This document shows positions 30,464 to 63,842 of a stretch of DNA of 64,000 nt, piece by piece (position 1 is the first letter of the stretch; the number at the start of each line of letters is the position of its first letter). Origin of the DNA: Lachnospiraceae bacterium (GTDB lineage: Bacteria > Bacillota > Negativicutes > Veillonellales > Dialisteraceae); NCBI GenBank assembly GCA_963615055.1, contig CAVEFO010000001.1, positions 48,948 to 112,947 of the forward strand, in the 5' to 3' direction. The position numbers and the translations under genes are program-made. The notes beneath the pieces are model-generated. The model saw nothing but the letters and a program-made list of their open reading frames with translations. It searched no databases and was not told where the DNA came from.

Positions 30464-34453
<3,990 letters not shown>

Positions 34454-34480
34454 TTAGGATACCGCTCCTTTCCGGGAATG

Positions 34481-37400
34481 TCAGTCTTCCGAGGCATCCG
34501 AGCTGTCTTCGTTCGGATCGTCGGTAATGGTGTAATCAATATCTCTGTCGTCGCTTGCTTCATACGCTTCGACGGCATCATCCGCATCGAGGACATCCGC
34601 GAGAATATCCGATGCGCCTTCGCTTTCGCGTCCTTGCACTTCGTCTCTGGAAACGGAAATGGAGTCGTCGCCTTCCATGACTTCGAGAAGTTCTTTGTCA
34701 TGCGCCTGCTTTTCAGCCATGGCGCGATCCGCTTCCTTGTCGTCGCGATTGAGGCGGCGATCACTGAAAGACGTCTCAAACTCATCTTCGTCAAGTTCCT
34801 TCATGACGACTTCTTCGCCGTTTTCATTCAAGATGCGGACATCGAGGCCGATGGATTGCAATTCTTTCATGAGGACCTTGAAGGATTCCGGTACGCCCGG
34901 CGAGGGAATATTTTCGCCCTTGACAATCTTTTCGTACGCACGCACGCGACCGACGACGTCATCGGACTTCACCGTCAAAATTTCCTGCAATGTATACGCG
35001 GCGCCGTAAGCTTCCAGCGCCCAGACTTCCATTTCGCCGAAACGCTGGCCGCCGAATTGGGCTTTGCCGCCCAGAGGCTGCTGCGTGACGAGAGAGTAAG
35101 GACCCGTGGAGCGAGCGTGAATTTTATCGTCGACGAGATGGTGGAGCTTGAGCATGTATTTCCAGCCGATTGTGACGGGATTATCCAATTTTTCACCCGT
35201 GCGCCCGTCGTAGAGGACGCTCTTAGCATTGGCGGGCAAATTCGCCGCACGCAGCGTCGTCGCCAAATCTTCATCACGGCAGCCGTCAAAGACCGGCGTC
35301 GCAATGTGAATCCCGTCGCGATCCGGCTCCGGCATTCCGTATTTGTCGAAATCGTAACCGGCTTCGCGGAGACGTCTCTCCACATCGGGATCCTTTTCGC
35401 GAATTTCTTCGCCCAACGCATGGCAAGCCCAGCCGAGGTGGATTTCCAAAATCTGGCCGATATTCATACGAGACGGCACACCCAGCGGATTCAGCACCAA
35501 ATCGACGGGGCGTCCGTCCGGCGTAAACGGCATATCTTCGATCGGCATGACACGGGAGCACACGCACTTATTTCCGTGGCGGCCGGCCATTTTATCGCCT
35601 TCGTGGATTTTCCGTTTCTGCGCGATGTAGACCCGGACACTCCTGTTCACGCCGGGCGGAAGCTCGTCGCCCTCCTCTCGCGAAAAGATTTTCACATCCA
35701 CAATCTTGCCGAATTCCCCATGCGGCACACGGAGCGACGTGTCGCGCACTTCGCGTTCCTTGTCACCGAAAATGGCACGGAGAAGGCGTTCTTCCGGCGT
35801 GAGTTCCGTTTCCCCTTTCGGCGTGACCTTCCCGACCAGGATGTCGCCCGGGTGGACATCGGCACCGATTGAAATAATGCCGTTTTCATCGAGATATTTG
35901 ATCGCGTCTTCGCCGACGGACGGCAGCTGCCGCGTGATTTCTTCATTGCCCAGCTTCGTGTCGCGCGCGTCGCACTCGTATTCTTCGATATGGATAGAGG
36001 TATACAGATCCTCTTTGCAAAGACGTTCGGAAATCAAAACGGCGTCTTCGTGGTTGTAGCCTTCCCAGGAAACGAACGCCACGAGCACATTCTGCCCGAG
36101 CGCCAATTCCCCTCCGTCCGTCGCCATGCCGTCCGCCAGCGTCTGTCCCGCTTCGACGCGATCACCTTCGGAGACAATCGTGCGCTGATTGATGCACGTG
36201 CTCTGGTTCGAACGCATGAATTTCGTGAGCGGATATTCGTCCACTTCGCCTTTATCCGTGCGGACGGTGATGGACGTCCCATCGATTTTCTTGACGACGC
36301 CGGAGCGCTTGGCCAGAACGCACACGCCGGAGTCCTGCGCCGCGACAAATTCCATGCCCGTACCGACAAGCGGTGCCGTCGGACGAAGAAGCGGCACAGC
36401 CTGACGCTGCATGTTTGCCCCCATCAGCGCGCGGTTCGTGTCATCGTGTTCAAGGAAGGGAATGAGCGATGTCCCGATAGAAACGACCTGCTTCGGCGAG
36501 ACGTCCATCAGGCTGACTTCCGTCGCATCCGCTTCCACGGGATCGGCGCCGCGACGGGCCGTGACGTTTTTATTCACAAAATGATTCTCGGCATCAAGCG
36601 GTTCGGACGCCTGTGCGATAATTTTATCTTCTTCAATATCCGCCGTGACGTATTTACATTCTTCCGTGACAACCGGATTTTCCGGATCCGTCCGATCAAT
36701 CTGACGATACGGCGTCTCAATGAGCCCGTAGCGATTGATGATGGCGAAATTGGCCAGCGAAGAAATCAGGCCGATGTTCGGACCTTCCGGCGTTTCGACG
36801 GAGCACATGCGGCCGTAATGCGAATAGTGGACATCGCGGACTTCGAAACCGGCACGCTCACGGGAAAGACCGCCCGGCCCCAGAGCGGAGAGACGGCGCT
36901 TGTGCGTCAATTCCGCCAGCGGATTCGTCTGGTCCATGAACTGGGAGAGCTGCGAACTTCCGAAAAATTCTTTGATCGCGGCGACGACAGGACGGATATT
37001 CACCAGCGCTTGCGGCGTCATTTTATCCTCATCCTGCGTCGTCATCCGTTCGCGCACGACACGCTCCATGCGGGACAGCCCGATACGGAATTGATTCTGC
37101 AAAAGTTCCCCCACACAGCGCACGCGACGGTTTCCCAAATGGTCGATATCATCCGTTTCCCCGATACCCTGCATGAGATTCAAAAGATAACCGATATTGG
37201 CAATCATGTCCTCCGGCTTCAGCGTCCGGTCGGAATCCGGCAAATTCGCATCATTGCAGACGATCTTCACTTCCGTGCCTTCGCTGTTTTCCATCAGCTC
37301 TGAAACCATGCCCGGATGCGCAAAGACCCCACTCTTTTCCAATTTTGCGATTGCTTCGGCATCGACCAAAACGCCCGCTTCCAAAATGACTTCGCCCGTT

Positions 37401-38290
37401 TCCGTATTCACAATCGGTTCCGCCGTCACAAGATCGCGAATCCGATTCTTCCAGCCGAGCTTCTTGCCCGCTTTGTAGCGGCCGACCTTCGCCAAATCAT
37501 AGCGATGCGGATCATAGAAAAGATTGTGCAAGAGCGTCGTCGCCGATTCCACCGTCGGCGGTTCGCCCGGACGGAGTTTCTTGTAAATCTCGATCAGCGC
37601 TTCTTCGCGATTGTGCGTCGGATCCTTTTCGAGCGTCCGCTGAATATGCACATCCCGGCCGAACAAATCAAGGATTTCATCATTTGTTTCCCAGCCGAGC
37701 GCACGCACCAAAATCGTCGCCGGCATCTTGCGGTTCCGATCGATACGAATAGAGACCGTCCCATTGGAATCCGTTTCCAATTCGATCCACGCGCCGCGAT
37801 TCGGGATTACCTGCCCGCTGTAAATATATTTCCCGAGGCTATCCTGCTCACGCGAAAAATACACGCCCGGCGAACGGACGAGCTGCGAGACGACGACACG
37901 TTCCGCGCCGTTGATGACGAAAGTCCCCGTCGATGTCATGATGGGAAAATCGCCCATGAAAAGATCCGGATTTTCCTTGATTTCTCCCGTTTCATGATTG
38001 ACGAGACGCGCACACACGCGAAGCGGTGCACTGTACGTCATCGCCTTCGCGCGACATTCATCAATCGTCGCGTCCGGCGCTTCAAAACGGTAATCCAAGA
38101 AATACAGCCCCCACTTGTGGCCGCTGTCTTCGATGGGAGAAATATCATCCAATACATCCCGCAGGCCTTCCTGTTGGAACCATTCGTAGGATTTCGTCTG
38201 CAGGTCGAGCAAATGCGGCATTTTCATGACGTCAATCGCTCTTGCGTAGGTATACCGTTTACGCGTACCCACCTTTTCGGGTCTGAACAT
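34481..38290 (-). CDS. rpoB: DNA-directed RNA polymerase subunit beta
   Basis: 1269 aa, RpoB-like throughout, with a long acidic C-terminal tail. Confidence 0.95.
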
Positions 38291-42657: not shown

Positions 42658-42742
42658 GCGAGCGTGGCGAAACTGGCAGACGCGCCGGATTTAGGATCCG
42701 GTACCTTGCGGTATGGGGGTTCGAGTCCCTTCGCTCGCACCA
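42658..42742 (+). tRNA. tRNA-Leu (anticodon TAG)
   Basis: 85 nt. Acceptor stem GCGAGCG/CGCTCGC. Anticodon stem CCGGA/TCCGG with loop TTTAGGA. Long variable arm. T-arm GGGGGTTCGAGTCCCTT. CCA is encoded. Closely resembles the Bacillus tRNA-Leu(UAG) as I recall it. Confidence 0.9.
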
Positions 42743-48872: not shown

Positions 48873-49193
48873 CTACTCCACGCCCGGGAAACTTTTCACA
48901 AAACGAATCGTGATATCCGGGAAACTGTCGACAAATTGGATTTTGAAATCCTCGCCGTGCTCCACAAATTGCCATTCCCCGATATCATCCGGAAAACTCG
49001 TCACCGTCTTCACCCGCAGATCCGGAAACGAATTCACCACCTTCACCCGGATATCCGGAAAATGCTCCACCACCTTCACTCGCCCGGCCAGACGAATGCC
49101 ATTAAAATACCCTTCCGGCGTGATGTTTCCCTTTGCGGAGACAAGGAACCCGCCGAGAAGAAAGACGAGAAAAAACGCCAATAATTTTTTCAT
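48873..49193 (-). CDS. small secreted repeat protein (FPD repeats)
   Basis: 106 aa with signal peptide MKKLLAFFLVFLLGGFLVSA and a strong AGGAGG Shine-Dalgarno. Five to six degenerate 11-aa repeats V-x-(S/H)-F-P-D-x-x-(V/I)-(K/R)-(V/F). Confidence 0.6.
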   Translation of the reverse strand: MKKLLAFFLVFLLGGFLVSAKGNITPEGYFNGIRLAGRVKVVEHFPDIRVKVVNSFPDLRVKTVTSFPDDIGEWQFVEHGEDFKIQFVDSFPDITIRFVKSFPGVE

Positions 49194-49456: not shown

Positions 49457-49558
49457 GTTTTACCACCATCAGAAATTACATCGCTCTCAAACCGCACGCG
49501 GGAGTTATTGCCTCCGGCTCTTGTTTTACCACTATCAGAAATTACATCGCTCTCAAAC
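49457..49558 (-). CRISPR. minimal type II-A CRISPR array (2 repeats, 1 spacer)
   Basis: 36-nt repeats at 49457-49492 and 49523-49558, differing at one position. crRNA sense: GTTTGAGAGCGATGTAATTTCTGAT(A/G)GTGGTAAAAC. One 30-nt spacer at 49493-49522, written on the plus strand as CGCACGCGGGAGTTATTGCCTCCGGCTCTT. Confidence 0.85.
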
Positions 49559-49644
49559 CTCAAATTGCATAATTATGCAGCCGGGTCGTCCGCAAGCGGT
49601 ACCGCCTTCACAAGGGCAGCGCAATTTCCGACAGGGTTTCTTCA
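49559..49644 (-). promoter_or_regulatory. CRISPR leader
   Basis: 86 nt between the csn2 stop and the first repeat. On the minus strand it ends in ATTTGAG directly against the repeat. Confidence 0.6.
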
Positions 49645-50316
49645 TCAAAAAATCTGGCATAGGTCCCGATCGATGACGAAGAGTTCCTCCTGCTTCATTA
49701 TATCATGACAAATCCCTTCCAGCAGGAAAAATGAAAAATTCTCTTCCGCCGCATTTCGATACCATTCTTCCCGGACGTCCGGCGGCAGAAAATCTCGGAA
49801 ATGATTGAAACAGAAGCAGGTATCACCGCAAAGCGAGACCCAGCTTTTCATGAATGTCAGCATTCTCTCGGCCAAGCTTTGCCCACCCGTATCGATTTGG
49901 ATATGAAGCGCTTTGAAAATATCCGTCACATCGATATCCGGCTCATAATCAAGTGGCAAGGAATGATCAAATATCACCGTCTCCGCATAACGAATAATGT
50001 TTTGGCAAAGACTTGCCGTTTCGACCGAATGTATCTCATCATGAGCGATATCTCGCAATTTCTTGTACAGCACGGTCAAAAGTTTCCGGTCATTGGGATT
50101 GAGTTCTGCGGGGCTGCCAATCAACAAAAATGATTTTTTCATGTCTAGTGCTTTGCCGTTTTTCGTCAAAACAAAGCGCCCGCCTCCCATCTCGGCCGCT
50201 TCCTGCAGCGCCAAAAATGTCTCATACAGACAGATCTCGTTTTCCACAGAGAGAATCGGCACGCGTCCTTCTCCCGGAGCCAACGTAAACTCCCACTCAG
50301 GCAACAGCAATTTCAT
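49645..50316 (-). CDS. csn2: CRISPR-associated protein Csn2 (type II-A)
   Basis: 223 aa, last cas gene before the leader. Layout matches the S. pyogenes-type short Csn2. Confidence 0.8.
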   Translation of the reverse strand: MKLLLPEWEFTLAPGEGRVPILSVENEICLYETFLALQEAAEMGGGRFVLTKNGKALDMKKSFLLIGSPAELNPNDRKLLTVLYKKLRDIAHDEIHSVETASLCQNIIRYAETVIFDHSLPLDYEPDIDVTDIFKALHIQIDTGGQSLAERMLTFMKSWVSLCGDTCFCFNHFRDFLPPDVREEWYRNAAEENFSFFLLEGICHDIMKQEELFVIDRDLCQIF

Positions 50317-50633
50317 AAAATCACCAGCCTTTCTTCACTGTCGATAATTTCACTTTGCAGCTGTCCCAGGATGAGCTCCATCTCGCCGTATTGTTTCTCC
50401 GTGATGACCAAAGCCTGGATCAAGCCATGCCGCGGCCGGATGCCTTTCACGTATTTGATAATGCTGCGGGAAGCCGCCGGCGTCAGCGCAATCTTGGTAT
50501 AGACGGATTCCTGCATCATGATAAAGCCTTTCGTGATAAGGCCTTTTCGGAAATTGCGATAGGCGCGCCGCTCCTCCGAAGTGTCCGTCGGCAGGTCAAA
50601 AAACACCATGACGCGCATAAATCTACCACTCAT
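50313..50633 (-). CDS. cas2: CRISPR-associated endoribonuclease Cas2
   Basis: 106 aa beginning MRVMVFFDLPTDT. Overlaps both cas1 and csn2. Confidence 0.9.
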   Translation of the reverse strand: MSGRFMRVMVFFDLPTDTSEERRAYRNFRKGLITKGFIMMQESVYTKIALTPAASRSIIKYVKGIRPRHGLIQALVITEKQYGEMELILGQLQSEIIDSEERLVIL

Positions 50634-51504
50634 CGGCTCGTTCGTAAAACATAATCTCCTCCGGCTGTCCTTCTTCCATCGCCCGAAAGACGCTGTGCAC
50701 GTAAGTCCCGATCGCTTGAGAAACCAAGACTTTTTTCCCGCCCTGCCGCACAGTGCGATTCAGCACATCGACGAGTTTTCGTTTGTGAATTTCGGTAAAT
50801 TCTTCAGCGCAAAGCACCATCGCCACACAATCGATGAGCGGACGGAAAGGCTCCATCAGATCGCTACCGAGATTGAAAGGGTTATATTGATTGTCGTGCT
50901 TAAGCCCGAGCTGGGTGAGGTAGCCGGCGGCGACGATTTCCCGATTGAAAAAGGCCAAAAGAACGGCATAACCGTAATCCAAAGCCCCATTCAATGCGCA
51001 GGGATCCCGCCTGGTAAACAGTTTCCCGCGAAGCGCATTGAAATAGACTTTTGCAGCCGGCCCTTCTCGATTGGTCTCGTCGCCCGGCAAGACATCTTGT
51101 TCATAATCGGCAAGCATGGCCGCTTCCGCCAAATGTCCCCATTCTTCCAAGACGAGACGCTGCTGACGAATTTTTTCACGAATGATGGATTGCCAGACTT
51201 GGGCCTTCCGCTCTTCTTTCCATCGAATCTGCGCGCGGATACGCCCACTGGATTCTCCGCTGCCGGTATAGGAAACGAGCTCGGAGGCCGGATTGTGCTT
51301 TTCGTTGCAAAAGATGACTTTGATTTTGCGGCGGGCGCACTCATTGAGCCAGACGCCGGTCATGGCGACGGCCGGCGTCTCCAGGATGACGGTCTGCACA
51401 TCATCCAGAAAGATTCGCTTTGTCTCTTGGCCGCGCACGACCATATAGCCCATCGCATACTCAAGCTTGGCTCTATCGGTAATAATGACCGTCCGCCAGC
51501 CCAT
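50623..51504 (-). CDS. cas1: CRISPR-associated endonuclease Cas1 (type II)
   Basis: 293 aa beginning MGWRTVIITDRAKL. Conserved acidic and His residues sit in the C-terminal domain. 1-nt TAATG overlap with the cas9 stop. Confidence 0.9.
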   Translation of the reverse strand: MGWRTVIITDRAKLEYAMGYMVVRGQETKRIFLDDVQTVILETPAVAMTGVWLNECARRKIKVIFCNEKHNPASELVSYTGSGESSGRIRAQIRWKEERKAQVWQSIIREKIRQQRLVLEEWGHLAEAAMLADYEQDVLPGDETNREGPAAKVYFNALRGKLFTRRDPCALNGALDYGYAVLLAFFNREIVAAGYLTQLGLKHDNQYNPFNLGSDLMEPFRPLIDCVAMVLCAEEFTEIHKRKLVDVLNRTVRQGGKKVLVSQAIGTYVHSVFRAMEEGQPEEIMFYERADEW

Positions 51505-52316
51505 TATTCATCTCCTTTCCAAAGCGGAATTTTCTTTTCAAAGAATCCCGTAACAGATTGGGTAATCAGCGAGATGTTTGAATCCTTTTTTATTTGATAA
51601 GAAATGCTAAATTTCCCGGCTTCTTTAGGCCCATTGAAGATTTCTAGGTTAGCGGTTGTAGCATTACATTGGAAAAGATGCAAAATTTCCTCTATCATGC
51701 GACATTTTTCGTCTAATGACATTTCAGAAAATAACGCTTTCCCCTCCTGCAAGATATCTGCTATCGGTAAAAATCTCTTGCTATAGATCGTTTCCGCTAA
51801 CTTCGCGATAAAAGCATCATAAAGTTGCAAAGCCATTTCGGTCGTGATTCCATCACTCTCTGGTTTTGATAATATTTTAGCTTTTCTTTGTCTGTCATTG
51901 TATTCCAGAATCTTTTTTAAAATTCTCGCATCCATATCAGACAAACAAAGTTGTATAGCATGCCTGATGCCCACGTTTTCCTTACTCTCTTTTTTAGCAA
52001 GATAGGCAGGAAATCCATCTATACTAAGTAAGGACTGTTTTGGGATCACGGGAAGCACGAGGGCACTTACTTTTAGCGGAACTTTTCTTTGGGATAATTT
52101 GTTTTTGAAATAATCCAATTTAGCCTCACTTGTTTCCAGCCGCGCTGACAAATGAAGTGGCACCGCATCTAAACGAAATCCCTCCTTCCCTTTTTTATCC
52201 ACTGTTTTAAGCAATACAAAATATGCAATTTTAGCACCATTATATCCGCCATATTTAGAAATATCGGACAATGGGCCGTTAGCTCTAAGTGACACCTGCC
52301 CTTCTCCCTTCCTCAA
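51504..52316 (-). CDS. cas9: Cas9 C-terminal (PAM-interacting domain) fragment
   Basis: In the same frame as 52323-55655, separated from it only by TAG plus two codons. Contains KYGGYNGAKIAYFVLL and a C-terminal ITQSVTGFFEKKIPL, which parallel SpCas9 KYGGFDSPTVAYSVLV and IHQSITGLYETRIDL. No ATG or Shine-Dalgarno of its own. Confidence 0.85.
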   Translation of the reverse strand: MRKGEGQVSLRANGPLSDISKYGGYNGAKIAYFVLLKTVDKKGKEGFRLDAVPLHLSARLETSEAKLDYFKNKLSQRKVPLKVSALVLPVIPKQSLLSIDGFPAYLAKKESKENVGIRHAIQLCLSDMDARILKKILEYNDRQRKAKILSKPESDGITTEMALQLYDAFIAKLAETIYSKRFLPIADILQEGKALFSEMSLDEKCRMIEEILHLFQCNATTANLEIFNGPKEAGKFSISYQIKKDSNISLITQSVTGFFEKKIPLWKGDE

Positions 52317-52322
52317 TGGATT

Positions 52323-55300
52323 CTATTTAAACAGTTCCCCTTTCTCGACAAAGCACTTTCTCGTGAAAAGGATATTGTTTCTTTTCATCCATTTCCGGAC
52401 GGTCGCCATTGTCCCGCCTTCTCCGGGTGTCCATGCCACTTTCCCGCTGCGCTCCACGGCGTATCGGTAGAAGGATTCCGGATGCAGGCTGTAGACCGCA
52501 TTCTTTTCTTTCAAGAAATTGACCGGATTGGCTGTGAATTTCGTATGGAAGACGTTTCCCACGACGATATTCAGATACGCATCCTTGGCGTGATGATAGT
52601 CATTCAAATCACGCACTTTGATGAAACCGGCGTAATGACGGAATTCGGATGCATTTTTCGCTTTGGTATAAACAATCGTCGTGTCCGAGTACGCCTTTTT
52701 CAAAATCTCGGCGCACGCCTTAGTGCTCTGCCGCGTCTCCACCAACTGCCGACCGATGAAAGCCGCTTTTTCCTCTTCCGTAATCCCGGAGCGCCGCGTG
52801 AGACGATGGTATTTTTCTTTTGTGATGAGATTTTTCTCCAAGAGCAGCCGCCAGAAAGCGCCCATTTCTTTTTGAATGTCGTTAATGGCGATGCCAAGCG
52901 CCGGATTTTTGTACCCATTGAGCGCTGCGCCTAGAGGATACCGATCCTTCTTTTGCGCGTTGACCTGCTTCTCTACAAGTACACGATTATTGAGACTGTC
53001 ATCCCCGGTGACGGATTGCGGATAGATGTGATCGATGTCATAACGATTCACATCAAAGAGGTCTCGGATGTCAATCGGTTTCCCCGTGTACGCCGACCTT
53101 CCCATTTGTGTGTAATACAGATACAGTTTATCTCTGCGAAGGGCGGACTCTTCACATTTTTGCAAATCTTCCGCAAGTTTTTCCGCGTCCACATGAAAGG
53201 CCGCCGCTTCTTTTTTACAGTTTTTATACAGCTCTTCCAGACGCGCTTTTCTTGAAACGGTCTTCTTCCCTTTTTCTTCCGGACCTTTCGCCATTTCAAT
53301 GAAAATCTTGGCCGGTGCTTTTCCCAGAATGGATGTAATTTCTCGGATAATCTTCAATGTCTGCCACAGAGGACGACGAACCGCCGGTGAGATGTACATG
53401 TTTTCAAGTGTCTCATACGTCAATTTCTCGCCGCCGATCAAATCTTCGTTTTCTTTCTCAATGGTCTTCGCATACCCGTAATCGCTGCTCAAAAGCTGCA
53501 TGAGATTACAATCGGTCTTTTCAAGCGCCGTGATGATATTCATGACTTCGCCCGTTTCCGTATCGCTTGGATTTCCGTCCGCCGGCAAAATCTCCGTCAA
53601 AAGCTTCTTTGACAATCTCCCCCACGATCCCGAAGGCAATTTGACGATGTCTTTGATTTGCCCGTCCGTCAGATTCGGAAACGCACTTTTCAATCTCTTT
53701 TTCAAAAGATTCGGTGCCCCGCCGAATAGATTTACATCCAGCAAAATCCGCTCGGCCATTTGGAGATCAAAACCTTCTCCTAAAACCCGATTCATATCAA
53801 TCCAAGGGGCTAAGCTTGCATTGAATTTGTCATCCATGCCGCTGATTTGCTCCGCTTCTTCTTTCGGGATTCCTTCTTTTTCTTGCAGATATTTCGCCAA
53901 TTTCCCTTTGGTGACATTTTTCATCCCCTTGAAAAGATTTTCATACACCCGCATTTTCAGCCCCGGCTTGGCGGCATCCAATTTCAATTCCCCACTTCCG
54001 ATCCGGACATTGTTCAACTCGTTCAAAACGGCATACTTGGCATACAGCAATGAATTCTTCGGCAACACATCCTCTCCGAGCAGATACGTACACTTGCCCG
54101 TCATCCGACGAATAAAGCCTTCTGCTGATTCTTCCTCATTCACCATCTCCGAAAAAATCCACGGCAAAATGCGCCCGTCTTTTTGACGGACGGCCCATGC
54201 CTTTCCGAGTCCCTTCGCGTGCGGATTCGTAGGTCCCACATAATACGGCACACGAAATTCCAAAATTTGTTCAATCTTATCCGCGACCGTCCCGTAATCG
54301 TCCCGCTCCTGCAAAAACGGCAAATACGCTTTCGCTTTTCCCAAAATGACCAGCATTTCCACTTTGTGCAGCTGATACGGAATGACCCCATTGTCGGACG
54401 TCACGGCTTTAGGTAAAAAAGCCCCCAAATCCATTTCTTGCAAAACATAATTTTTATCGGCCGAATCCGGCAATTTTTCCAATTTCTTCTTGATTTCTTT
54501 ATAAAAATCTTCCATCGATACCGATTTTTCTATCGGTAATTTCTCTTTCTTTCCGGTCGTCGCATGCTTCACATACGCCGCGTAGCTTGTTTTCCCCGTG
54601 CTTTTGAAAATTTCATCATACGCCGCGCGATCCTGTTTCAGCACGGTCTTCAATAATTTCAAATCCTTTTTATGCTTTTCGTAAACCGCCACCTTAGCTT
54701 CGGATAGGAACCGACTGTTTCCCAAAAGCTCGACCAACCGGGACCAATCATAGAGCGCTTTGCACACCGCGATCAAGCCGTAGCGCTCCTCGGAAAGACC
54801 GCTTTTCAGCTGTATGTCTCTCTCCTCAAAGGTCGCCGATGAAAAAGAAATCTTATTGTACTCCGCTTCTTTCAATTCTTCATCCGAAAAAAGTTCATCC
54901 GCTTTCCCTTCCAAGCCGCAAAGTAAATTCGCTACCGCTTTGATTTGATTCTTTTGTTCTTTCTCCCCACTCGCCAAAAGTGTTTGCAGCTGTTTAGACT
55001 TATCTTTCCTCGATTTGCTTTTATCGGAAAGAAGCGCCTTCATTTCCGGCTGCTTTTCCGCTGCGATAGCAATCTCTGTCACATCTTCCATCGCATCCGC
55101 AAAATGTCCGAAACACTCCTCAAAGCCGGAAATCCCGGCAGCACCCACTTCAAAATCCTGATACAAAAAATGCCCGCGATTTTTGATCATGTGATGCAAC
55201 GCCAAGTAAACCAGCCGCACATCAAACAGCTTGTCACTCTTCATTAAATCGTTGCGCAAATGATAAATCGTCGGGTATTTCTTATGATAGGCTTTATCAT

Positions 55301-55655
55301 CAAAATCCGGATCGTTAAAAAGGCTGTTCGCCTGCGCGGTAGATTTATCTTCTTCATACAGCCGACTCTCTTTCAGCCGCAGGAAAAATCCGGGGTCGAC
55401 TTTATAAATTTCTTGGGCAAACAGTTCCTGGAGCAATGCAATTCGTCTCTTCCGTCTTTCGACCCGGCGGCGCGCAATCCGAAGAAGTCGCCGCCCTTCC
55501 GCCGTCTTCGCTTCATCAAAAAGCCGAACCCCCCAGAGTGCCTTTCCGTTTCTTTTAATAATTTCATACTGCTCATCCGCCACAGCCCAGCCGACTGAGC
55601 TCGTCCCCATGTCCAGCCCGATGTAGTAATCTTTCGTCCATTCTTTCTTCGTCAT
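52323..55655 (-). CDS. cas9: Cas9 (type II-A) RuvC/REC/HNH body, ended by an in-frame TAG
   Basis: Start at MTKKEWTKDYYIGLDMGTSSVGWAV with a GGAAGGAG Shine-Dalgarno. RuvC-I Asp, HNH (DIDHIYPQS..NRVL) and RuvC-III (DYHHAKDAYL) are all intact. Stops at the TAG at 52323-52325. Confidence 0.9.
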   Translation of the reverse strand: MTKKEWTKDYYIGLDMGTSSVGWAVADEQYEIIKRNGKALWGVRLFDEAKTAEGRRLLRIARRRVERRKRRIALLQELFAQEIYKVDPGFFLRLKESRLYEEDKSTAQANSLFNDPDFDDKAYHKKYPTIYHLRNDLMKSDKLFDVRLVYLALHHMIKNRGHFLYQDFEVGAAGISGFEECFGHFADAMEDVTEIAIAAEKQPEMKALLSDKSKSRKDKSKQLQTLLASGEKEQKNQIKAVANLLCGLEGKADELFSDEELKEAEYNKISFSSATFEERDIQLKSGLSEERYGLIAVCKALYDWSRLVELLGNSRFLSEAKVAVYEKHKKDLKLLKTVLKQDRAAYDEIFKSTGKTSYAAYVKHATTGKKEKLPIEKSVSMEDFYKEIKKKLEKLPDSADKNYVLQEMDLGAFLPKAVTSDNGVIPYQLHKVEMLVILGKAKAYLPFLQERDDYGTVADKIEQILEFRVPYYVGPTNPHAKGLGKAWAVRQKDGRILPWIFSEMVNEEESAEGFIRRMTGKCTYLLGEDVLPKNSLLYAKYAVLNELNNVRIGSGELKLDAAKPGLKMRVYENLFKGMKNVTKGKLAKYLQEKEGIPKEEAEQISGMDDKFNASLAPWIDMNRVLGEGFDLQMAERILLDVNLFGGAPNLLKKRLKSAFPNLTDGQIKDIVKLPSGSWGRLSKKLLTEILPADGNPSDTETGEVMNIITALEKTDCNLMQLLSSDYGYAKTIEKENEDLIGGEKLTYETLENMYISPAVRRPLWQTLKIIREITSILGKAPAKIFIEMAKGPEEKGKKTVSRKARLEELYKNCKKEAAAFHVDAEKLAEDLQKCEESALRRDKLYLYYTQMGRSAYTGKPIDIRDLFDVNRYDIDHIYPQSVTGDDSLNNRVLVEKQVNAQKKDRYPLGAALNGYKNPALGIAINDIQKEMGAFWRLLLEKNLITKEKYHRLTRRSGITEEEKAAFIGRQLVETRQSTKACAEILKKAYSDTTIVYTKAKNASEFRHYAGFIKVRDLNDYHHAKDAYLNIVVGNVFHTKFTANPVNFLKEKNAVYSLHPESFYRYAVERSGKVAWTPGEGGTMATVRKWMKRNNILFTRKCFVEKGELFK

Positions 55656-55657
55656 GA

Positions 55658-55685
55658 TTGACACTCCTTCCGTTTTGTGTATAAT
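55658..55685 (+). promoter_or_regulatory. consensus promoter of the tracrRNA
   Basis: TTGACA (55658-55663), 16 nt, TATAAT (55680-55685). The -35 lies 3 nt from the cas9 ATG, and the spacer covers the cas9 Shine-Dalgarno on the opposite strand. Confidence 0.6.
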
Positions 55686-55691
55686 ACACAT

Positions 55692-55803
55692 ATCAGGATT
55701 TACCACTCCTGAAATTACATCACAAGTTCAAATAAAGATTTATCCAAATCGTCGCGCAAGCGACCCCACAGTGTGTGGACTAAACTCCTTCGGGAGTTTT
55801 TTT
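55692..55803 (+). ncRNA. tracrRNA
   Basis: Anti-repeat at 55697-55733, with 10/11 and 10/10 identical blocks to the repeat complement. An AAGTTCAAATAAAG nexus-like segment follows. Then hairpins GTCGC-GCAA-GCGAC and CCACA-GTG-TGTGG, and terminator AAACTCC-TTCG-GGAGTTT followed by T7. Confidence 0.8.
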
Positions 55804-56087
55804 ATTGCTCATTTTCTCCCTTCTTGACCGGTACCCAATACCAATACAAAAAGCGCAATTCCCTCCCTACTTATCTTATCATAATCAGGGGGAATATCTG
55901 CGCCTGTCCCTTATAGAATATTTTTATTGCTGCGTAAAAACAAAATTGACCGGTAAGAGTTTTCGTTGATTCGTACTTTTCTTTCGCGGCGTTCTCGCCA
56001 TGAAACTTTCTGCAATCGGAGCGGAAGGCTAATTTGTAACAACCTTCGATAAAAACTTTTTTCTCACATTGCGCCCGCCTTCCGTTC

Positions 56088-61510: not shown

Positions 61511-62119
61511 ATGGGACAAATCTACGCCTACATCCGCGTCAGCACCCGCGACCAAAAAGAAGATCGGCAGCTTCTCGCCATGAGACAACTCCCGATCCCG
61601 AAAGAAAATATTTTTATCGACAAACAATCCGGCCAAAACTTTGATCGACCGCAATACCGAAAATTACTCCGCTGCCTACAAAAAGATGATCTGCTCTACA
61701 TCAAAAGCCTCGATCGCCTCGGACGAAATTACAAAGAAATCCCCGAAGAATGGCGGCGACTCACCAAAGAAAAAGGCATCGATATCGTCGTCCTCGATAT
61801 GCCCCTCCTCGATACCCGCCGCGGCAAAGACCTCCTCGGCACCTTCCTCAGCGACATCGTACTCCAAGTCCTCTCCTTCATCGCGGAAAACGAACGCGAA
61901 AACATCCGATGCCGCCAAGCCGAAGGCATCGCCGCCGCCAAAGAAAGAGGCGTCCGCTTCGGCCGTCCGCCCGCGCCGCTGCCGAAAAACTTTACAACCG
62001 TTTATCTGCGCTGGCAATCCGGAGAACTCACAGAAAAAGCCGCCGCCAAATCCTGCGCCATGCCCCTCTCCACCTTCCGCTACCGCGCCAAACACTACAA
62101 GCCGGAGCCGGAAACGTGA
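61511..62119 (+). CDS. small serine recombinase (resolvase/invertase family)
   Basis: 202 aa. Catalytic N-terminus YAYIRVSTRDQ and a C-terminal HTH. Typical size for Hin/Gin/Pin-type invertases. Confidence 0.85.
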   Translation: MGQIYAYIRVSTRDQKEDRQLLAMRQLPIPKENIFIDKQSGQNFDRPQYRKLLRCLQKDDLLYIKSLDRLGRNYKEIPEEWRRLTKEKGIDIVVLDMPLLDTRRGKDLLGTFLSDIVLQVLSFIAENERENIRCRQAEGIAAAKERGVRFGRPPAPLPKNFTTVYLRWQSGELTEKAAAKSCAMPLSTFRYRAKHYKPEPET

Positions 62120-62129
62120 AATCCTTTCG

Positions 62130-62278
62130 CCGTTACAAAAATGTGTACTTTTTTGCAAACCATTATTTCTAAAATTTCAAATTCATTATACCGCAAAAAT
62201 ACGCCGTTTCAAAGACGACGGGAAAACAGATTTTTCTCAATTTGACCGTTGCAAAAAAGTACACTTTTTTAACAACGG
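62130..62278. promoter_or_regulatory. candidate invertible promoter segment (inverton)
   Basis: 31/32-bp imperfect inverted repeats at 62130-62160 and 62247-62278, with a 16-bp perfect core GTGTACTTTTTTGCAA / TTGCAAAAAAGTACAC. Lies between the recombinase stop and the glycosyltransferase start. Confidence 0.6.
62185..62212 (-). promoter_or_regulatory. promoter inside the invertible segment (currently facing away from the GT genes)
   Basis: On the minus strand: TTGAAA (62207-62212), 16 nt, TATAAT (62185-62190). Confidence 0.5.
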
Positions 62279-62288
62279 AGAATCGGTA

Positions 62289-63842
62289 ATGAAAAAAATC
62301 GGTCTTGTGCTGTCTTGCGCTGTTCTTGTCATATATTCTCTATTTTGGATTGGATGCTGTCTGCTCAACTTATTTTTCTCTTACGTCCCCTATTCCTGCA
62401 AAAAAACATTTTTATTTTCCAATTTACAACTGCTTCTCTTTGGCCTCCTATCCGTCATTCTTTTTTGGATTTTCTCCTATTGGTTATCTCAAAAAAATTT
62501 TTCTCTTTCCTTTCCAAAATGCGACATCAACATTTTGACGCTGATACTTTTTGTTGTGCAAGCCTACGTTTTCTACAATACCTATTTTTACACAAACCAG
62601 TGGGACCCGGCCGCGATATATGGAAATGCAGAAATCATCTCCAGAGGAGCTACCGAAGGCCTCAATCACTTTTATTTCTCCAGATATCCTAATAATATCG
62701 GAATTGTTTGTTTCCAATCCATTCTGCTCCGTCTCAATCGAATCAGTGGCGTCTGGGATCCTGAAGGCCACTTTCTGATGATTTTGGTGCAATGTCTGTT
62801 GTCGTCTTGGACAGGAAAACTCCTCTACGACACCGTATGCCGCCTGACCGATTCCGGGAAATATGCTCTTCTAAGCTGGCTATTCTATATCGTTTTGCTC
62901 GGATTATCCGGTTGGAACATCATCACCTACACCGACATGATGAGCCTTATTTTCCCCATCGCCATTTTCAGCGTGTATCTCTCTTTGCAAAACGAAAAAA
63001 GAATCCTGTTGAAATGGATCGTCATCATCGGTTTGACGTATTGGGGCAGTCTGATAAAGCCAACCGTTGCCATTATCTTTTTGGCACTTCTTATCACGGA
63101 AATCATCCAACTCCTAAAACATTTCAATCTCGAAACATGGCGCCGAAAATTTAAATTTTTTATTAAAACCGCAATCGCCGGAGGCGTCTGTATTCTGCTG
63201 TTTTCAATGGGATATCAAGCCGCCGTTCGTTCAACCGGCTTAAACATCAATAAAAATGCATACGTCGGCGCCCTCCACTTCATGATGATGGGCCTAAACC
63301 CCGATAACCATGGCGTTTTCCACAAAAACGACACACTTTTATCTGCCAATATTACCAATCCATCCGAACGAACACATGCTCAAATCCAAACGATAAAAAA
63401 ACGTTTACACGATTATGGCCCCAAAGGATTCGCCAAACACATAGCAAAAAAATCTCTCATCAATTTCAATGACGGCACTTTTGCGTGGAGATGCGAGGGA
63501 GGCTTTTTTGATGTTATTTATCCGAACAAAAACAAAAAAGCAGCTCCGTTCTTACAAAGCTTATATCTCATAAATGGAAGCCGATATCGCTATCTTGCCG
63601 CACTGGAACAATGGGTATGGATGCTGACTCTTTTCACCTCCATCGGGCTGATCCTGATTAAAAAGAAAGCAGCTTTGGTTATTCTCCTATCTTTAATCGG
63701 TATCATTCTGTTCCACTCTCTGTTTGAAGCCCGGGCTCGGTATCTAATCCTATATGTTCCATTCTTCATCATGGCGTCCATTCTCTCCTTACATCATGGC
63801 GAAATGTATTGGCAAGAAAAATTACAAGGCCATTTTTTTTAG
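62289..63842 (+). CDS. polytopic membrane glycosyltransferase-like protein (GT39/ArnT-like)
   Basis: Start at the ATG at 62289 (MKKIGLVLSCAVLVIYSLFW) with an ACGGAG Shine-Dalgarno. The ORF-track extension to 61641 overlaps the recombinase gene in another frame. About 12 hydrophobic segments. Low GC. Confidence 0.6.
   Translation: MKKIGLVLSCAVLVIYSLFWIGCCLLNLFFSYVPYSCKKTFLFSNLQLLLFGLLSVILFWIFSYWLSQKNFSLSFPKCDINILTLILFVVQAYVFYNTYFYTNQWDPAAIYGNAEIISRGATEGLNHFYFSRYPNNIGIVCFQSILLRLNRISGVWDPEGHFLMILVQCLLSSWTGKLLYDTVCRLTDSGKYALLSWLFYIVLLGLSGWNIITYTDMMSLIFPIAIFSVYLSLQNEKRILLKWIVIIGLTYWGSLIKPTVAIIFLALLITEIIQLLKHFNLETWRRKFKFFIKTAIAGGVCILLFSMGYQAAVRSTGLNINKNAYVGALHFMMMGLNPDNHGVFHKNDTLLSANITNPSERTHAQIQTIKKRLHDYGPKGFAKHIAKKSLINFNDGTFAWRCEGGFFDVIYPNKNKKAAPFLQSLYLINGSRYRYLAALEQWVWMLTLFTSIGLILIKKKAALVILLSLIGIILFHSLFEARARYLILYVPFFIMASILSLHHGEMYWQEKLQGHFF

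What the first reader, a model, noticed from the sequence alone, without database searches (positions are those of the whole stretch)
51504..52385. cas9 is interrupted by one in-frame TAG at the entry to a low-GC PAM-interacting-domain cassette
The 1111-aa RuvC/REC/HNH body and the 270-aa C-terminal ORF are in the same frame. Only TAG (52323-52325) and two codons (Asn-Pro) separate them. The joined product would be about 1384 aa and align with SpCas9 across the break (..VEKGELFK*NPLRKGEGQVS..KYGGYNG..). All nuclease motifs are intact. The C-terminal piece has no start codon or Shine-Dalgarno.

By hand count, 51541-52320 is about 39% GC. The next 480 nt of cas9 is about 50% GC, and a sampled line of cas1 is about 55%. 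The low-GC block begins near 52380, about 55 nt upstream of the TAG.

Possible explanations:
- A recently swapped PI domain (changed PAM specificity) that later picked up, or arrived with, a nonsense codon.
- A sequencing error.
- A truncated, PI-less Cas9 that is tolerated or used, perhaps with stop-codon readthrough.
Basis: partly seen in the sequence, partly recalled or inferred. Interest (0 to 1): 0.7.

Follow-up and report, generated by a model that had tools for sequence, protein, structure and literature searches.

The report
cas9 amber mutation in swappable PAM-domain cassette
A type II-A cas9 gene carries one private CAG-to-TAG nonsense change just inside its PAM-reading domain; that domain is one of several interchangeable cassettes in this Cas9 lineage, so this is an ordinary, recent knockout (or base-call error) inside a clear example of a known kind of domain swapping.

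Summary
cas9 (minus strand, 55655-51504) is broken by one in-frame TAG (52325-52323). The 272 codons after it are an intact Cas9_PI domain, and they form the lowest-GC 840-nt stretch of the window (0.385).

The PI domain is a real cassette. Against two closest relatives (L001, L005), DNA identity drops from 97-99% to 50-60% over about 52346-51507 and returns near the cas1 start. Ten Cas9 bodies that are 97-99% identical carry three unrelated PI types (40-49% identical).

The swap is not recent in this genome, and the stop did not arrive with the cassette.
- Two related metagenome-assembled genomes (MAGs; L003, L004) carry the same PI type on the same backbone, intact, with CAG (Gln) where the window has TAG.
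- All 14 relatives compared have Gln at that position.
- Synonymous divergence in the PI equals that of the body. pN/pS downstream of the stop is 0.05.

The stop is therefore a private, recent C-to-T nonsense mutation or a base-call error. tracrRNA, cas1, cas2 and csn2 are intact. The array has only 2 repeats and 1 spacer, against 15-22 repeats in relatives.

Low GC is shared by all PI types, and types A and B are old polymorphisms found in both Cas9 clades. Natural PI swapping is already documented. Interest is low to moderate.

The parts
55698..55803 (+). tracrRNA: anti-repeat at 55698-55734, then three hairpins and a U-run terminator
   Evidence: The duplex with the CRISPR repeat is -29.6 kcal/mol, and the tail folds into hairpins ending in TTTTTTT. 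The region is 100% identical to relatives over 55808-55689.
52326..55655 (-). cas9 body: 1110 codons covering RuvC-I, bridge helix, REC lobe, HNH and RuvC-III, up to the last sense codon before the TAG
   Evidence: Translation. Pfam hits Cas9-BH, Cas9_REC, HNH_4 and Cas9_RuvC. It is 97-98% identical to nine full-length Cas9s of 1379-1383 aa.
52347..52410 (-). Conserved 5' anchor encoding GTMATVRKWMKRNNILFTRKCF. This is the last stretch shared by all PI alleles, and the recombination breakpoint lies at its 3' edge.
   Evidence: The DNA alignment is near-identical in L001, L003, L004 and L005 up to 52346 and then diverges in L001 and L005. The motif is also kept in 40-60% identical Cas9s.
52323..52325 (-). 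In-frame amber codon TAG. It is CAG (Gln) in all relatives and is the position equivalent to SpCas9 E1108 in the phosphate-lock loop.
   Evidence: C in L001, L003, L004 and L005 where the window has T. Gln in 14 of 14 aligned Cas9s. Alignment to SpCas9 chains.
51507..52346 (-). PI-domain cassette, allele type D, low GC (0.385)
   Evidence: Identity to L001 (type A) and L005 (type B) is 48-68% here and 97-99% on both sides. Identity to L003 and L004 (type D) is 98.3-98.5%. Pfam Cas9_PI E = 2e-61.
52293..52312 (-). Possible re-initiation site: SD-like AGGAAGGGAGAAGGG followed by GTG (52295-52293), 10 codons after the TAG
   Evidence: Anti-SD duplex is -8.7 kcal/mol against -9.2 at cas9's own start. 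It is used as the start of P0001 (263 aa) in a public annotation. It is identical in the intact alleles, so it did not evolve for this purpose.
50623..51504 (-). cas1 (293 aa). Its ATG shares one base with the cas9 TAA.
   Evidence: Pfam Cas_Cas1. Same length as in relatives.
50313..50633 (-). cas2
   Evidence: Pfam CRISPR_Cas2.
49645..50316 (-). csn2 (223 aa), the type II-A signature gene
   Evidence: Pfam Cas_Csn2. Same length as in relatives.
49457..49562 (-). CRISPR array: two 36-nt repeats and one 30-nt spacer
   Evidence: Relatives have 15, 21 and 22 repeats between the same kind of flanks. The spacer has no other match in the window or in IMG/VR.

Best explanation
This is a chromosomal type II-A CRISPR-Cas locus (tracrRNA, cas9, cas1, cas2, csn2, array). 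It most likely belongs to a gut Clostridia genome of the Acutalibacteraceae kind.

In this Cas9 lineage the PAM-interacting (PI) domain behaves as an exchangeable cassette. At least four unrelated PI alleles (A, B, C, D) sit on near-identical Cas9 bodies. They are exchanged by homologous recombination between two conserved anchors. The 5' anchor encodes ...VRKWMKRNNILFTRKCF at the RuvC-III/PI boundary. The 3' anchor is the end of cas9 and the start of cas1. The exchange presumably diversifies PAM specificity.

The window carries the rare, low-GC D allele. Within that allele a single C-to-T transition turned a conserved Gln codon (CAG) into TAG, 20 nt inside the cassette. If the base call is right, translation ends after residue 1110. 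The product lacks the PI domain, so it should not recognise a PAM and should not support interference or PAM-guided spacer acquisition. The locus would then be a very recent cas9 knockout.

Shown: the cassette structure, the intact D alleles with CAG, and the privacy and recency of the stop. Inferred: loss of function, the recombination mechanism, and differences in PAM.
For: 1. Cassette boundaries. Window-to-L001 identity is 0.97-1.0 along cas9. It drops to 0.46-0.68 from about 52360 to 51515 and returns to 0.94-0.99 in cas1. The alignment puts the first divergent base at 52345, and similarity returns at the cas9 stop/cas1 ATG. L005 behaves the same way.

2. Incongruence. Ten Cas9 bodies are 97-99% identical, but their PI domains fall into three classes that are 40-49% identical to one another. 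The 90% sister clade carries A, B and a fourth type, C.

3. Intact D alleles. P0134 (L003, GCA_963589395.1) and P0136 (L004, GCA_963619715.1) read ...CFVEKGELFKQNPLRKGEGQVSL.... At DNA level, window position 52325 is T where L003, L004, L001 and L005 have C. All 14 relatives have Gln there.

4. Recency. Between the window and L003/L004, the PI has 10-11 synonymous and 2 nonsynonymous differences (pN/pS 0.05). PI pS is 0.056-0.062 against 0.066-0.079 in the body. The window's branch shows no excess of nonsynonymous changes in the body: 11 N to 15 S, against 34 N to 50 S pooled for the others, Fisher p = 1.

5. Rest of the system. The tracrRNA anti-repeat is intact, and cas1, cas2 and csn2 are intact. 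The array is reduced to 1 spacer, against 14-21 spacers in relatives.

6. No sign of recoding. No suppressor tRNA is in the window. TAG is a minority stop among the selected long ORFs, and no other real gene is split by TAG.

7. Structural position. The TAG aligns to SpCas9 E1108, and the cassette edge aligns to about Q1101. The SpCas9 PI domain starts at 1099 (plus domain limits from Nishimasu et al. 2014, recalled from my own knowledge).

8. Precedent. Natural PI-domain swapping with breakpoints at PI boundaries is described for streptococcal and other Cas9s (bioRxiv 10.1101/2021.05.01.442224).
Against: - No reads are available, so a base-call or consensus error cannot be excluded. The TAG allele is a singleton in a collection of 15 billion proteins: the cluster of P0001 has one member.
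- The lack of any relaxed-selection signal fits a very recent mutation, but it fits an artefact or a still-functional gene equally well.
- The one-spacer array could be an assembly effect. However, 15-22-repeat arrays were assembled in related short-read MAGs.
- Loss of function of a PI-less Cas9 is inferred from SpCas9 work, not tested for this protein.
- A strong SD-like sequence plus GTG 27 nt after the stop leaves room for a two-piece protein.
Confidence: 0.65

Rival explanations
1. Sequencing, assembly or consensus artefact. The real genome has CAG (Gln) at 52325-52323 and an intact 1383-aa Cas9 with the D-type PI domain.
For: - One substitution restores the exact residue seen in 14 of 14 relatives.
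- Everything else in cas9 and the locus is intact and under purifying selection.
- The TAG allele is seen in only one assembly.
- The closest relatives come from a short-read MAG project ('cleanbin', SPAdes contigs). If the window is also a MAG, its consensus may mix strains.
Against: - Substitution errors in assembled consensus are rare compared with indels.
- C-to-T is the commonest real mutation.
- The same locus also has a strongly shortened array, which fits a system that is really inactive.
- None of this is decisive.
Confidence: 0.2
2. The allele is still functional. Either low-level amber readthrough or suppression gives full-length Cas9, or termination at TAG is followed by re-initiation at GTG 52295, giving a two-piece Cas9 (1110-aa body plus 263-aa PI domain) that assembles on the guide RNA.
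For: - The downstream frame is fully open and shows pN/pS 0.05.
- A strong SD-like element plus GTG lies 27 nt after the stop (-8.7 kcal/mol).
- Engineered split Cas9 halves can reassemble on the sgRNA (Wright et al. 2015, Zetsche et al. 2015; my own knowledge, and at other split sites).
Against: - The SD-like element and GTG are identical in intact alleles, where they simply encode KGEGQV.
- The stop is not conserved in any relative.
- No suppressor tRNA is in the window, and there is no other TAG-interrupted gene.
- The restart product would lack the phosphate-lock loop and the first roughly 17 PI residues.
- The low pN/pS is explained equally well by the stop being recent.
Confidence: 0.07
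3. The TAG is a scar of the recombination event that brought the D cassette into this genome, or it arrived with the cassette from the donor.
For: The stop lies only about 20 nt inside the 5' edge of the cassette.
Against: - The same junction sequence, apart from the single C/T, is present in L003 and L004 with CAG.
- Synonymous divergence of the cassette equals that of the backbone, so there is no separate, recent import in the window.
- The proximity of the stop to the junction looks coincidental.
Confidence: 0.03

Closest known systems
Natural PAM-interacting-domain (PID) swapping among closely related Cas9 orthologues. Streptococcal and other Cas9s: Wang et al., bioRxiv 10.1101/2021.05.01.442224. 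Nme1/Nme2/Nme3Cas9: Edraki et al. 2019, recalled from my own knowledge.
   Same: - Near-identical catalytic bodies carry unrelated PI domains.
- Breakpoints lie at the PI boundary.
- Body and PI similarities are incongruent.
- The residues aligned to the SpCas9 PAM-reading positions differ between the alleles, by eye from the sequences against the SpCas9 alignment (which covers only the D type).
   Different: - This is a different host group (gut Clostridia, Acutalibacteraceae-like MAGs).
- Four alleles are seen, and two of them (A, B) are shared by two Cas9 clades at backbone-level divergence. That points to an old maintained polymorphism rather than one-off swaps.
- PAMs were not determined here.
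Streptococcus pyogenes Cas9 and the type II-A system (tracrRNA, cas9, cas1, cas2, csn2)
   Same: - Same gene order and the same Pfam domains.
- The tracrRNA lies upstream of cas9 on the opposite strand.
- 36-nt repeats and 30-nt spacers.
- The PI region aligns to SpCas9 1069-1362.
   Different: - Sequence similarity in the PI region is weak (E = 2e-5). The best solved relative is 9jwk.
- SpCas9 R1333 and R1335 align to Ala and Lys in the D allele, so the PAM is probably not NGG.
- cas9 is interrupted here.
Inactivated cas genes in decaying CRISPR-Cas loci
   Same: A single nonsense codon interrupts an otherwise complete locus. The array is shortened to one spacer.
   Different: No further decay is visible. 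There are no frameshifts and no relaxed selection, so it is either at the very first step of decay or not real.

Membership tests
Type II-A CRISPR-Cas system | Cas9 with RuvC, bridge helix, REC, HNH and PI domains | tested here: met
   All Pfam domains are found across the two reading-frame pieces. The pieces are split by one TAG.
Type II-A CRISPR-Cas system | csn2 downstream of cas1-cas2 | tested here: met
   PF09711 Cas_Csn2, 223 aa, at 49645-50316.
Type II-A CRISPR-Cas system | tracrRNA with an anti-repeat complementary to the CRISPR repeat | tested here: met
   55698-55734 pairs with the repeat at -29.6 kcal/mol, followed by hairpins and a terminator. No Rfam family matched.
Type II-A CRISPR-Cas system | CRISPR array of 36-nt repeats | tested here: met
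   Two repeats and one 30-nt spacer at 49457-49562. This is minimal compared with 15-22 repeats in relatives.
Type II-A CRISPR-Cas system | Uninterrupted cas9 reading frame (an active effector) | tested here: not met
   In-frame TAG at 52325-52323. Activity itself cannot be tested with these tools.
Natural PI-domain-swapped Cas9 alleles | Body and PI similarities are incongruent among close relatives | tested here: met
   Bodies are 97-99% identical. PI types A, B and D are 40-49% identical (protein) and 52-59% identical (DNA).
Natural PI-domain-swapped Cas9 alleles | Recombination breakpoints at the PI-domain borders | tested here: met
   The 5' edge is at about 52346, equivalent to SpCas9 Q1101 (the PI domain starts at 1099). 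The 3' edge is at the cas9 stop for type A and about 60-100 nt into cas1 for type B.
Natural PI-domain-swapped Cas9 alleles | Different PAM specificity of the alleles | not testable with these tools
   Only indirect evidence. The SpCas9 alignment covers the D type only: R1333 and R1335 align to Ala and Lys in ...EAGKFS.... Types A (...QAGRLR...) and B (...QAGALG...) were placed against it by eye. No protospacers were found for 63 spacers in GenBank phages.
Long-standing pseudogene | Relaxed selection or further lesions downstream of the first disruption | tested here: not met
   The 272 downstream codons are open, with pN/pS 0.05 against the intact D alleles. The N/S ratio of the window's branch equals that of relatives.
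Programmed stop-codon recoding (suppression, pyrrolysine, readthrough) | The stop codon is conserved at the site in relatives | tested here: not met
   14 of 14 relatives have Gln. The DNA is CAG in all four loci compared at DNA level (L001, L003, L004, L005).
Programmed stop-codon recoding (suppression, pyrrolysine, readthrough) | Amber-decoding tRNA, or other genes with in-frame TAG | tested here: inconclusive
   The only tRNA in the window is tRNA-Leu(TAG anticodon). No other real gene is split by TAG. The rest of the genome was not available.

The most novel reading that the evidence does not exclude
The amber allele is not dead. After termination at TAG, ribosomes restart at the SD-preceded GTG 27 nt downstream. 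The 1110-aa Cas9 body and a free 263-aa PI domain then assemble on the guide RNA into a natural two-piece Cas9. Alternatively, the CAG/TAG transition acts as a reversible off-switch for CRISPR immunity. In either case the PI domain would be modular at the protein level as well as the gene level.
Probability: 0.04. Interest if true: 0.7.

Novelty: new member of a known kind. Interest (0 to 1): 0.3.

Why it matters
The stop codon alone matters little. It is most likely a one-off knockout or an error in a single assembly.

The surrounding pattern is more useful. A set of gut-Clostridia Cas9 genes has 97-99% identical bodies and three to four unrelated PI cassettes with clean, shared breakpoints. 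Two of the cassettes persist across two Cas9 clades. That is a compact natural example of PAM-specificity diversification by cassette exchange, possibly maintained by phage pressure. It also supplies ready-made chimera junctions and new PI domains for engineering.

The D-type PI is rare. Across 1.8 billion representative proteins, the best full-length relative is 43% identical, apart from one 110-aa fragment at 79%. It may therefore read a PAM that has not been described.

Tried and rejected
1. **Word-indexed search with the PI piece.** It gave only 4 hits. This understated the homologues, because the exhaustive HMMER search found 947. I therefore did not use the small hit count as evidence of uniqueness.

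2. **Protospacers, to infer PAMs.** 63 spacers from the window and five relatives were searched against GenBank phages and gave no match. The window's spacer had no match in IMG/VR and no second copy in the window, so there is no self-targeting within the 64 kb.

3. **More copies of the junction.** A D-type-specific junction pattern (C or T at the mutated base) had no match in JGI metagenomes. A protein-guided scan with the PI domain also found nothing. The genome-representative scan found only three loci, none of D type.

4. **Source contig.** Exact-protein look-ups of P0001 and P0125 were not on record, so the assembly accession and organism name of the window remain unknown.

5. **Frameshifting or slippage at TTTAAATAG.** Rejected, because both pieces are in the same frame.

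6. **Recombination scar.** Rejected, because the intact alleles have an identical junction.

7. **Relaxed selection on the window's branch, as a way to separate a real pseudogene from an artefact.** No signal, so this did not discriminate.

8. **Rfam.** No tracrRNA family hit. The tracrRNA was found by repeat complementarity instead.


Full report
**Observation**

On the minus strand, cas9 starts at ATG 55655. It runs for 1110 sense codons to AAA 52326 and meets TAG at 52325-52323. It then continues in the same frame for 272 sense codons to TAA 51506-51504, whose last base is the A of the cas1 ATG.

Pfam places Cas9-BH, Cas9_REC, HNH_4 and Cas9_RuvC in the first piece. It places Cas9_PI (E = 2e-61, profile positions 15-265 of 265) in the second.

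The PI block is the lowest-GC 840-nt stretch of the whole 64-kb window. Its GC3 is 0.37 against 0.55 for the cas9 body.

- The body is 1110 aa and the joined protein is 1383 aa.
- The compositional and sequence break is about 20 nt upstream of the TAG, not 55 nt.
- The downstream piece does have candidate starts. One is TTG at 52316. The other is GTG at 52295, behind an AGGAAGGGAGAAGGG stretch that pairs with the anti-SD at -8.7 kcal/mol (cas9's own start: -9.2).

**Locus anatomy**

The locus is a complete type II-A module.
- A tracrRNA lies on the plus strand at 55698-55803. Its anti-repeat pairs with the repeat at -29.6 kcal/mol and is followed by three hairpins and a U-run.
- cas9 is followed by cas1 (293 aa), cas2 and csn2 (223 aa).
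- The array at 49562-49457 has only two 36-nt repeats and one 30-nt spacer.
- Flanking genes are a heavy-metal P-type ATPase upstream and a small repeat-containing ORF, then ffh (SRP54), downstream.

**Relatives**

The cas9 body has very close relatives. Its 90%-identity cluster has 13 members: the window's own 1110-aa product, ten full-length Cas9s of 1379-1391 aa and two truncated fragments. A sister group is about 90% identical (P0006-P0008), and there are more distant ones. One sister-clade contig is labelled 'Acutalibacteraceae bacterium', from a MAG set assembled with SPAdes.

**The PI domain is a cassette**

DNA identity between the window and L001 (which encodes P0005) is 0.97-1.00 along cas9. 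It falls to 0.46-0.68 between about 52360 and 51515 and is back at 0.94-0.99 in cas1.

The base-level alignment shows near-identity through ...TTCACGAGAAAGTGCTTTGTCG. The first cassette-specific difference is at 52345, and similarity returns at the cas9 stop/cas1 ATG. L005 (which encodes P0126) behaves the same way, except that its 3' edge reaches about 60-100 nt into cas1.

At protein level, the ten clade-1 bodies compared (the window plus nine relatives) are 97-99% identical. Their PI domains fall into three classes:
- type A: P0005, P0127, P0133;
- type B: P0126, P0129, P0130, P0135;
- type D: the window, P0134, P0136.

These classes are only 40-49% identical to each other. The 90% sister clade carries A, B and a fourth type, C.

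Aligned to SpCas9, the 5' edge of the cassette corresponds to about Q1101, and the SpCas9 PI domain begins at 1099. The exchanged unit is therefore the structural PI domain (domain limits from Nishimasu et al. 2014, my own knowledge).

The 5' edge follows a DNA stretch encoding GTMATVRKWMKRNNILFTRKCF, which is conserved even in Cas9s only 40-60% identical. The 3' edge is next to the conserved QS[VI]TGFFEK motif and cas1. I infer, but have not shown, that these conserved flanks act as homology anchors for recombination.

**Where the TAG comes from**

Two MAG contigs, L003 (GCA_963589395.1) and L004 (GCA_963619715.1), carry the same D-type cassette on the same backbone as an uninterrupted 1383-aa Cas9. 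They read ...CFVEKGELFKQNPLRKGEGQVSL....

At window position 52325 (minus strand) they have C where the window has T. So do L001 and L005. All 14 aligned relatives have Gln at this column. The stop is therefore a private CAG-to-TAG transition. It did not come with the cassette, and it is not a junction scar, because the junction sequence is otherwise identical in the intact alleles.

The site corresponds to SpCas9 E1108, within the K1107-S1109 phosphate-lock loop (the loop's role is from Anders et al. 2014, my own knowledge).

**Age of the swap and of the stop**

Between the window and L003/L004, the PI part differs at 13-14 of 840 nt. There are 10-11 synonymous and 2 nonsynonymous differences besides the stop (pN/pS 0.05).

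Synonymous divergence in the PI (0.056-0.062) matches that in the body (0.066-0.079). The D cassette was therefore already on this backbone when these lineages split. It is not a recent import in the window. The sequence downstream of the stop has evolved under purifying selection for essentially all of that time.

The window's own branch shows no excess of nonsynonymous changes in the body: 11 N to 15 S, against 34 N to 50 S pooled for four relatives (Fisher p = 1). The stop is therefore very recent, or not real, or harmless. These data cannot tell the three apart.

**GC content**

The low GC is not peculiar to the window's allele. PI GC is 0.38 for D, 0.40-0.41 for A, 0.44 for B and 0.38 for C, against 0.47-0.49 for the bodies. 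GC3 is 0.34-0.49 against 0.55-0.61.

Types A and B occur in both Cas9 clades, with PI divergence equal to backbone divergence (A: 88.9% against 86.7%; B: 86.0% against 86.2%). The PI polymorphism is therefore older than the split of the two clades. This fits long-term maintenance of alternative PAM specificities. That reading is an inference from few genomes.

**Rarity of the D type**

An exhaustive HMMER search of 1.84 billion representative proteins found 947 PI homologues. None was above 43% identity over the full length, apart from a 110-aa fragment at 79% (P0139). D-type sequences were absent from JGI metagenome contigs and from the three loci found among GTDB representatives. No donor lineage was identified.

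**PAM residues**

In the weak alignment to SpCas9 (E = 2e-5), R1333 and R1335 align to Ala and Lys in type D (...EAGKFS...). That alignment covers the D type only. By eye from the sequences, the same stretch reads ...QAGRLR... in type A and ...QAGALG... in type B. This suggests different PAMs, but it is only a lead. No protospacers were found for 63 spacers.

**Functional state**

If the base call is right, the main product is a 1110-aa Cas9 without its PI domain. Deletion of the PI domain abolishes cleavage by SpCas9 (Nishimasu et al. 2014). Cas9's PAM reading is also needed for spacer acquisition in type II-A systems (Heler et al. 2015). Both points are from my own knowledge. The system would then be inactive.

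The one-spacer array, against 15-22 repeats in L003-L005, fits an inactive or recently reset system. It could also be an assembly effect. No self-target of the lone spacer was found within the window.

**Alternatives**

- Recoding has no support. The stop is not conserved, the only tRNA in the window is tRNA-Leu, TAG is a minority stop among the selected long ORFs, and no other real gene is split by TAG.
- Frameshifting is irrelevant, because both pieces share a frame.
- Re-initiation at GTG 52295 is mechanically plausible. However, the signal is simply the coding sequence for KGEGQV and is identical in the intact alleles. The restart product would lack the phosphate-lock loop.
- A sequencing or consensus error cannot be excluded. 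The TAG allele is seen in one assembly only, and reads are not available.

**Comparison with what is known**

Natural PI-domain swapping, with breakpoints concentrated at PI boundaries and body/PI tree incongruence, has been described for streptococcal Cas9s and for many genera (Wang et al., bioRxiv 10.1101/2021.05.01.442224). It is also known for the Neisseria meningitidis Cas9 orthologues (Edraki et al. 2019, my own knowledge).

The present case is a new and clean member of that kind in gut Clostridia. It adds the observation that alleles persist across clades. The nonsense codon is an ordinary lesion.

**Verdict**

Mosaicism is real, but the swap is not recent and the stop did not arrive with the cassette.
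- The most likely reading is a private, very recent loss-of-function mutation (about 0.65).
- A base-call artefact is the main rival (about 0.2).
- A functional readthrough or split reading is unlikely (about 0.07).
- Interest is 0.3.

Noticed in passing
window 49457-55808; L003 and L004 9848-16199; L010 7705-14720: The whole module (tracrRNA, cas9, cas1, cas2, csn2, array) is 97% identical between the window and L003/L004 but sits in different chromosomal contexts. In the window and L005 it lies by a heavy-metal ATPase. In L003, L004 and L010 it lies by the ATP-synthase operon, with thyA-folA downstream in L003 and L004. L003 and L010 share the ATP-synthase flank at 96.7%, yet their cas loci are only 82.7% identical. 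So the entire locus is exchanged between lineages, not only the PI cassette.
   Followed up: partly
L001, L005, L006, L009, L010 (cas9 3' ends): PI types A and B are present in both Cas9 clades, with PI divergence equal to backbone divergence. This is an old, trans-clade polymorphism. All PI types have lower GC3 than the Cas9 body.
   Followed up: partly
window 49457-49562: The CRISPR array has only two repeats and one spacer, whereas related loci have 15-22 repeats. The spacer is unique among the relatives and has no match in the window or in IMG/VR.
   Followed up: partly
L002 5294-9377 (Logan SRR29141524): A more distant relative has its cas9 called as two overlapping ORFs of 918 and 458 aa. 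This implies a frameshift, which is either another disrupted cas9 or an assembly error.
   Followed up: no
window 54156-54158 (cas9 codon 500): A private Asn-to-Ile change sits in the conserved PWNF motif (ILPWNFSEMV becomes ILPWIFSEMV). It is one of 9-11 private amino-acid changes in the window's Cas9 body. The overall N/S ratio is not elevated.
   Followed up: partly
window 48884-49085: There are two sets of 33-nt tandem repeats (2 and 3 copies, about 73% identical) inside a small ORF just downstream of the array. The L005 counterpart hits Pfam Septknot.
   Followed up: no
window about 62100-63000: This is the only other part of the window with 840-nt GC at or below 0.40. It lies inside or near the ORF at 61641-63842.
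   Followed up: no
window 30464-38290 and 42658-42742: Two very long minus-strand ORFs (1329 and 1269 aa) may be rpoC and rpoB. That is a guess from their sizes alone and was not checked. A tRNA-Leu (anticodon TAG) lies at 42658-42742. This is ordinary chromosomal context.
   Followed up: no
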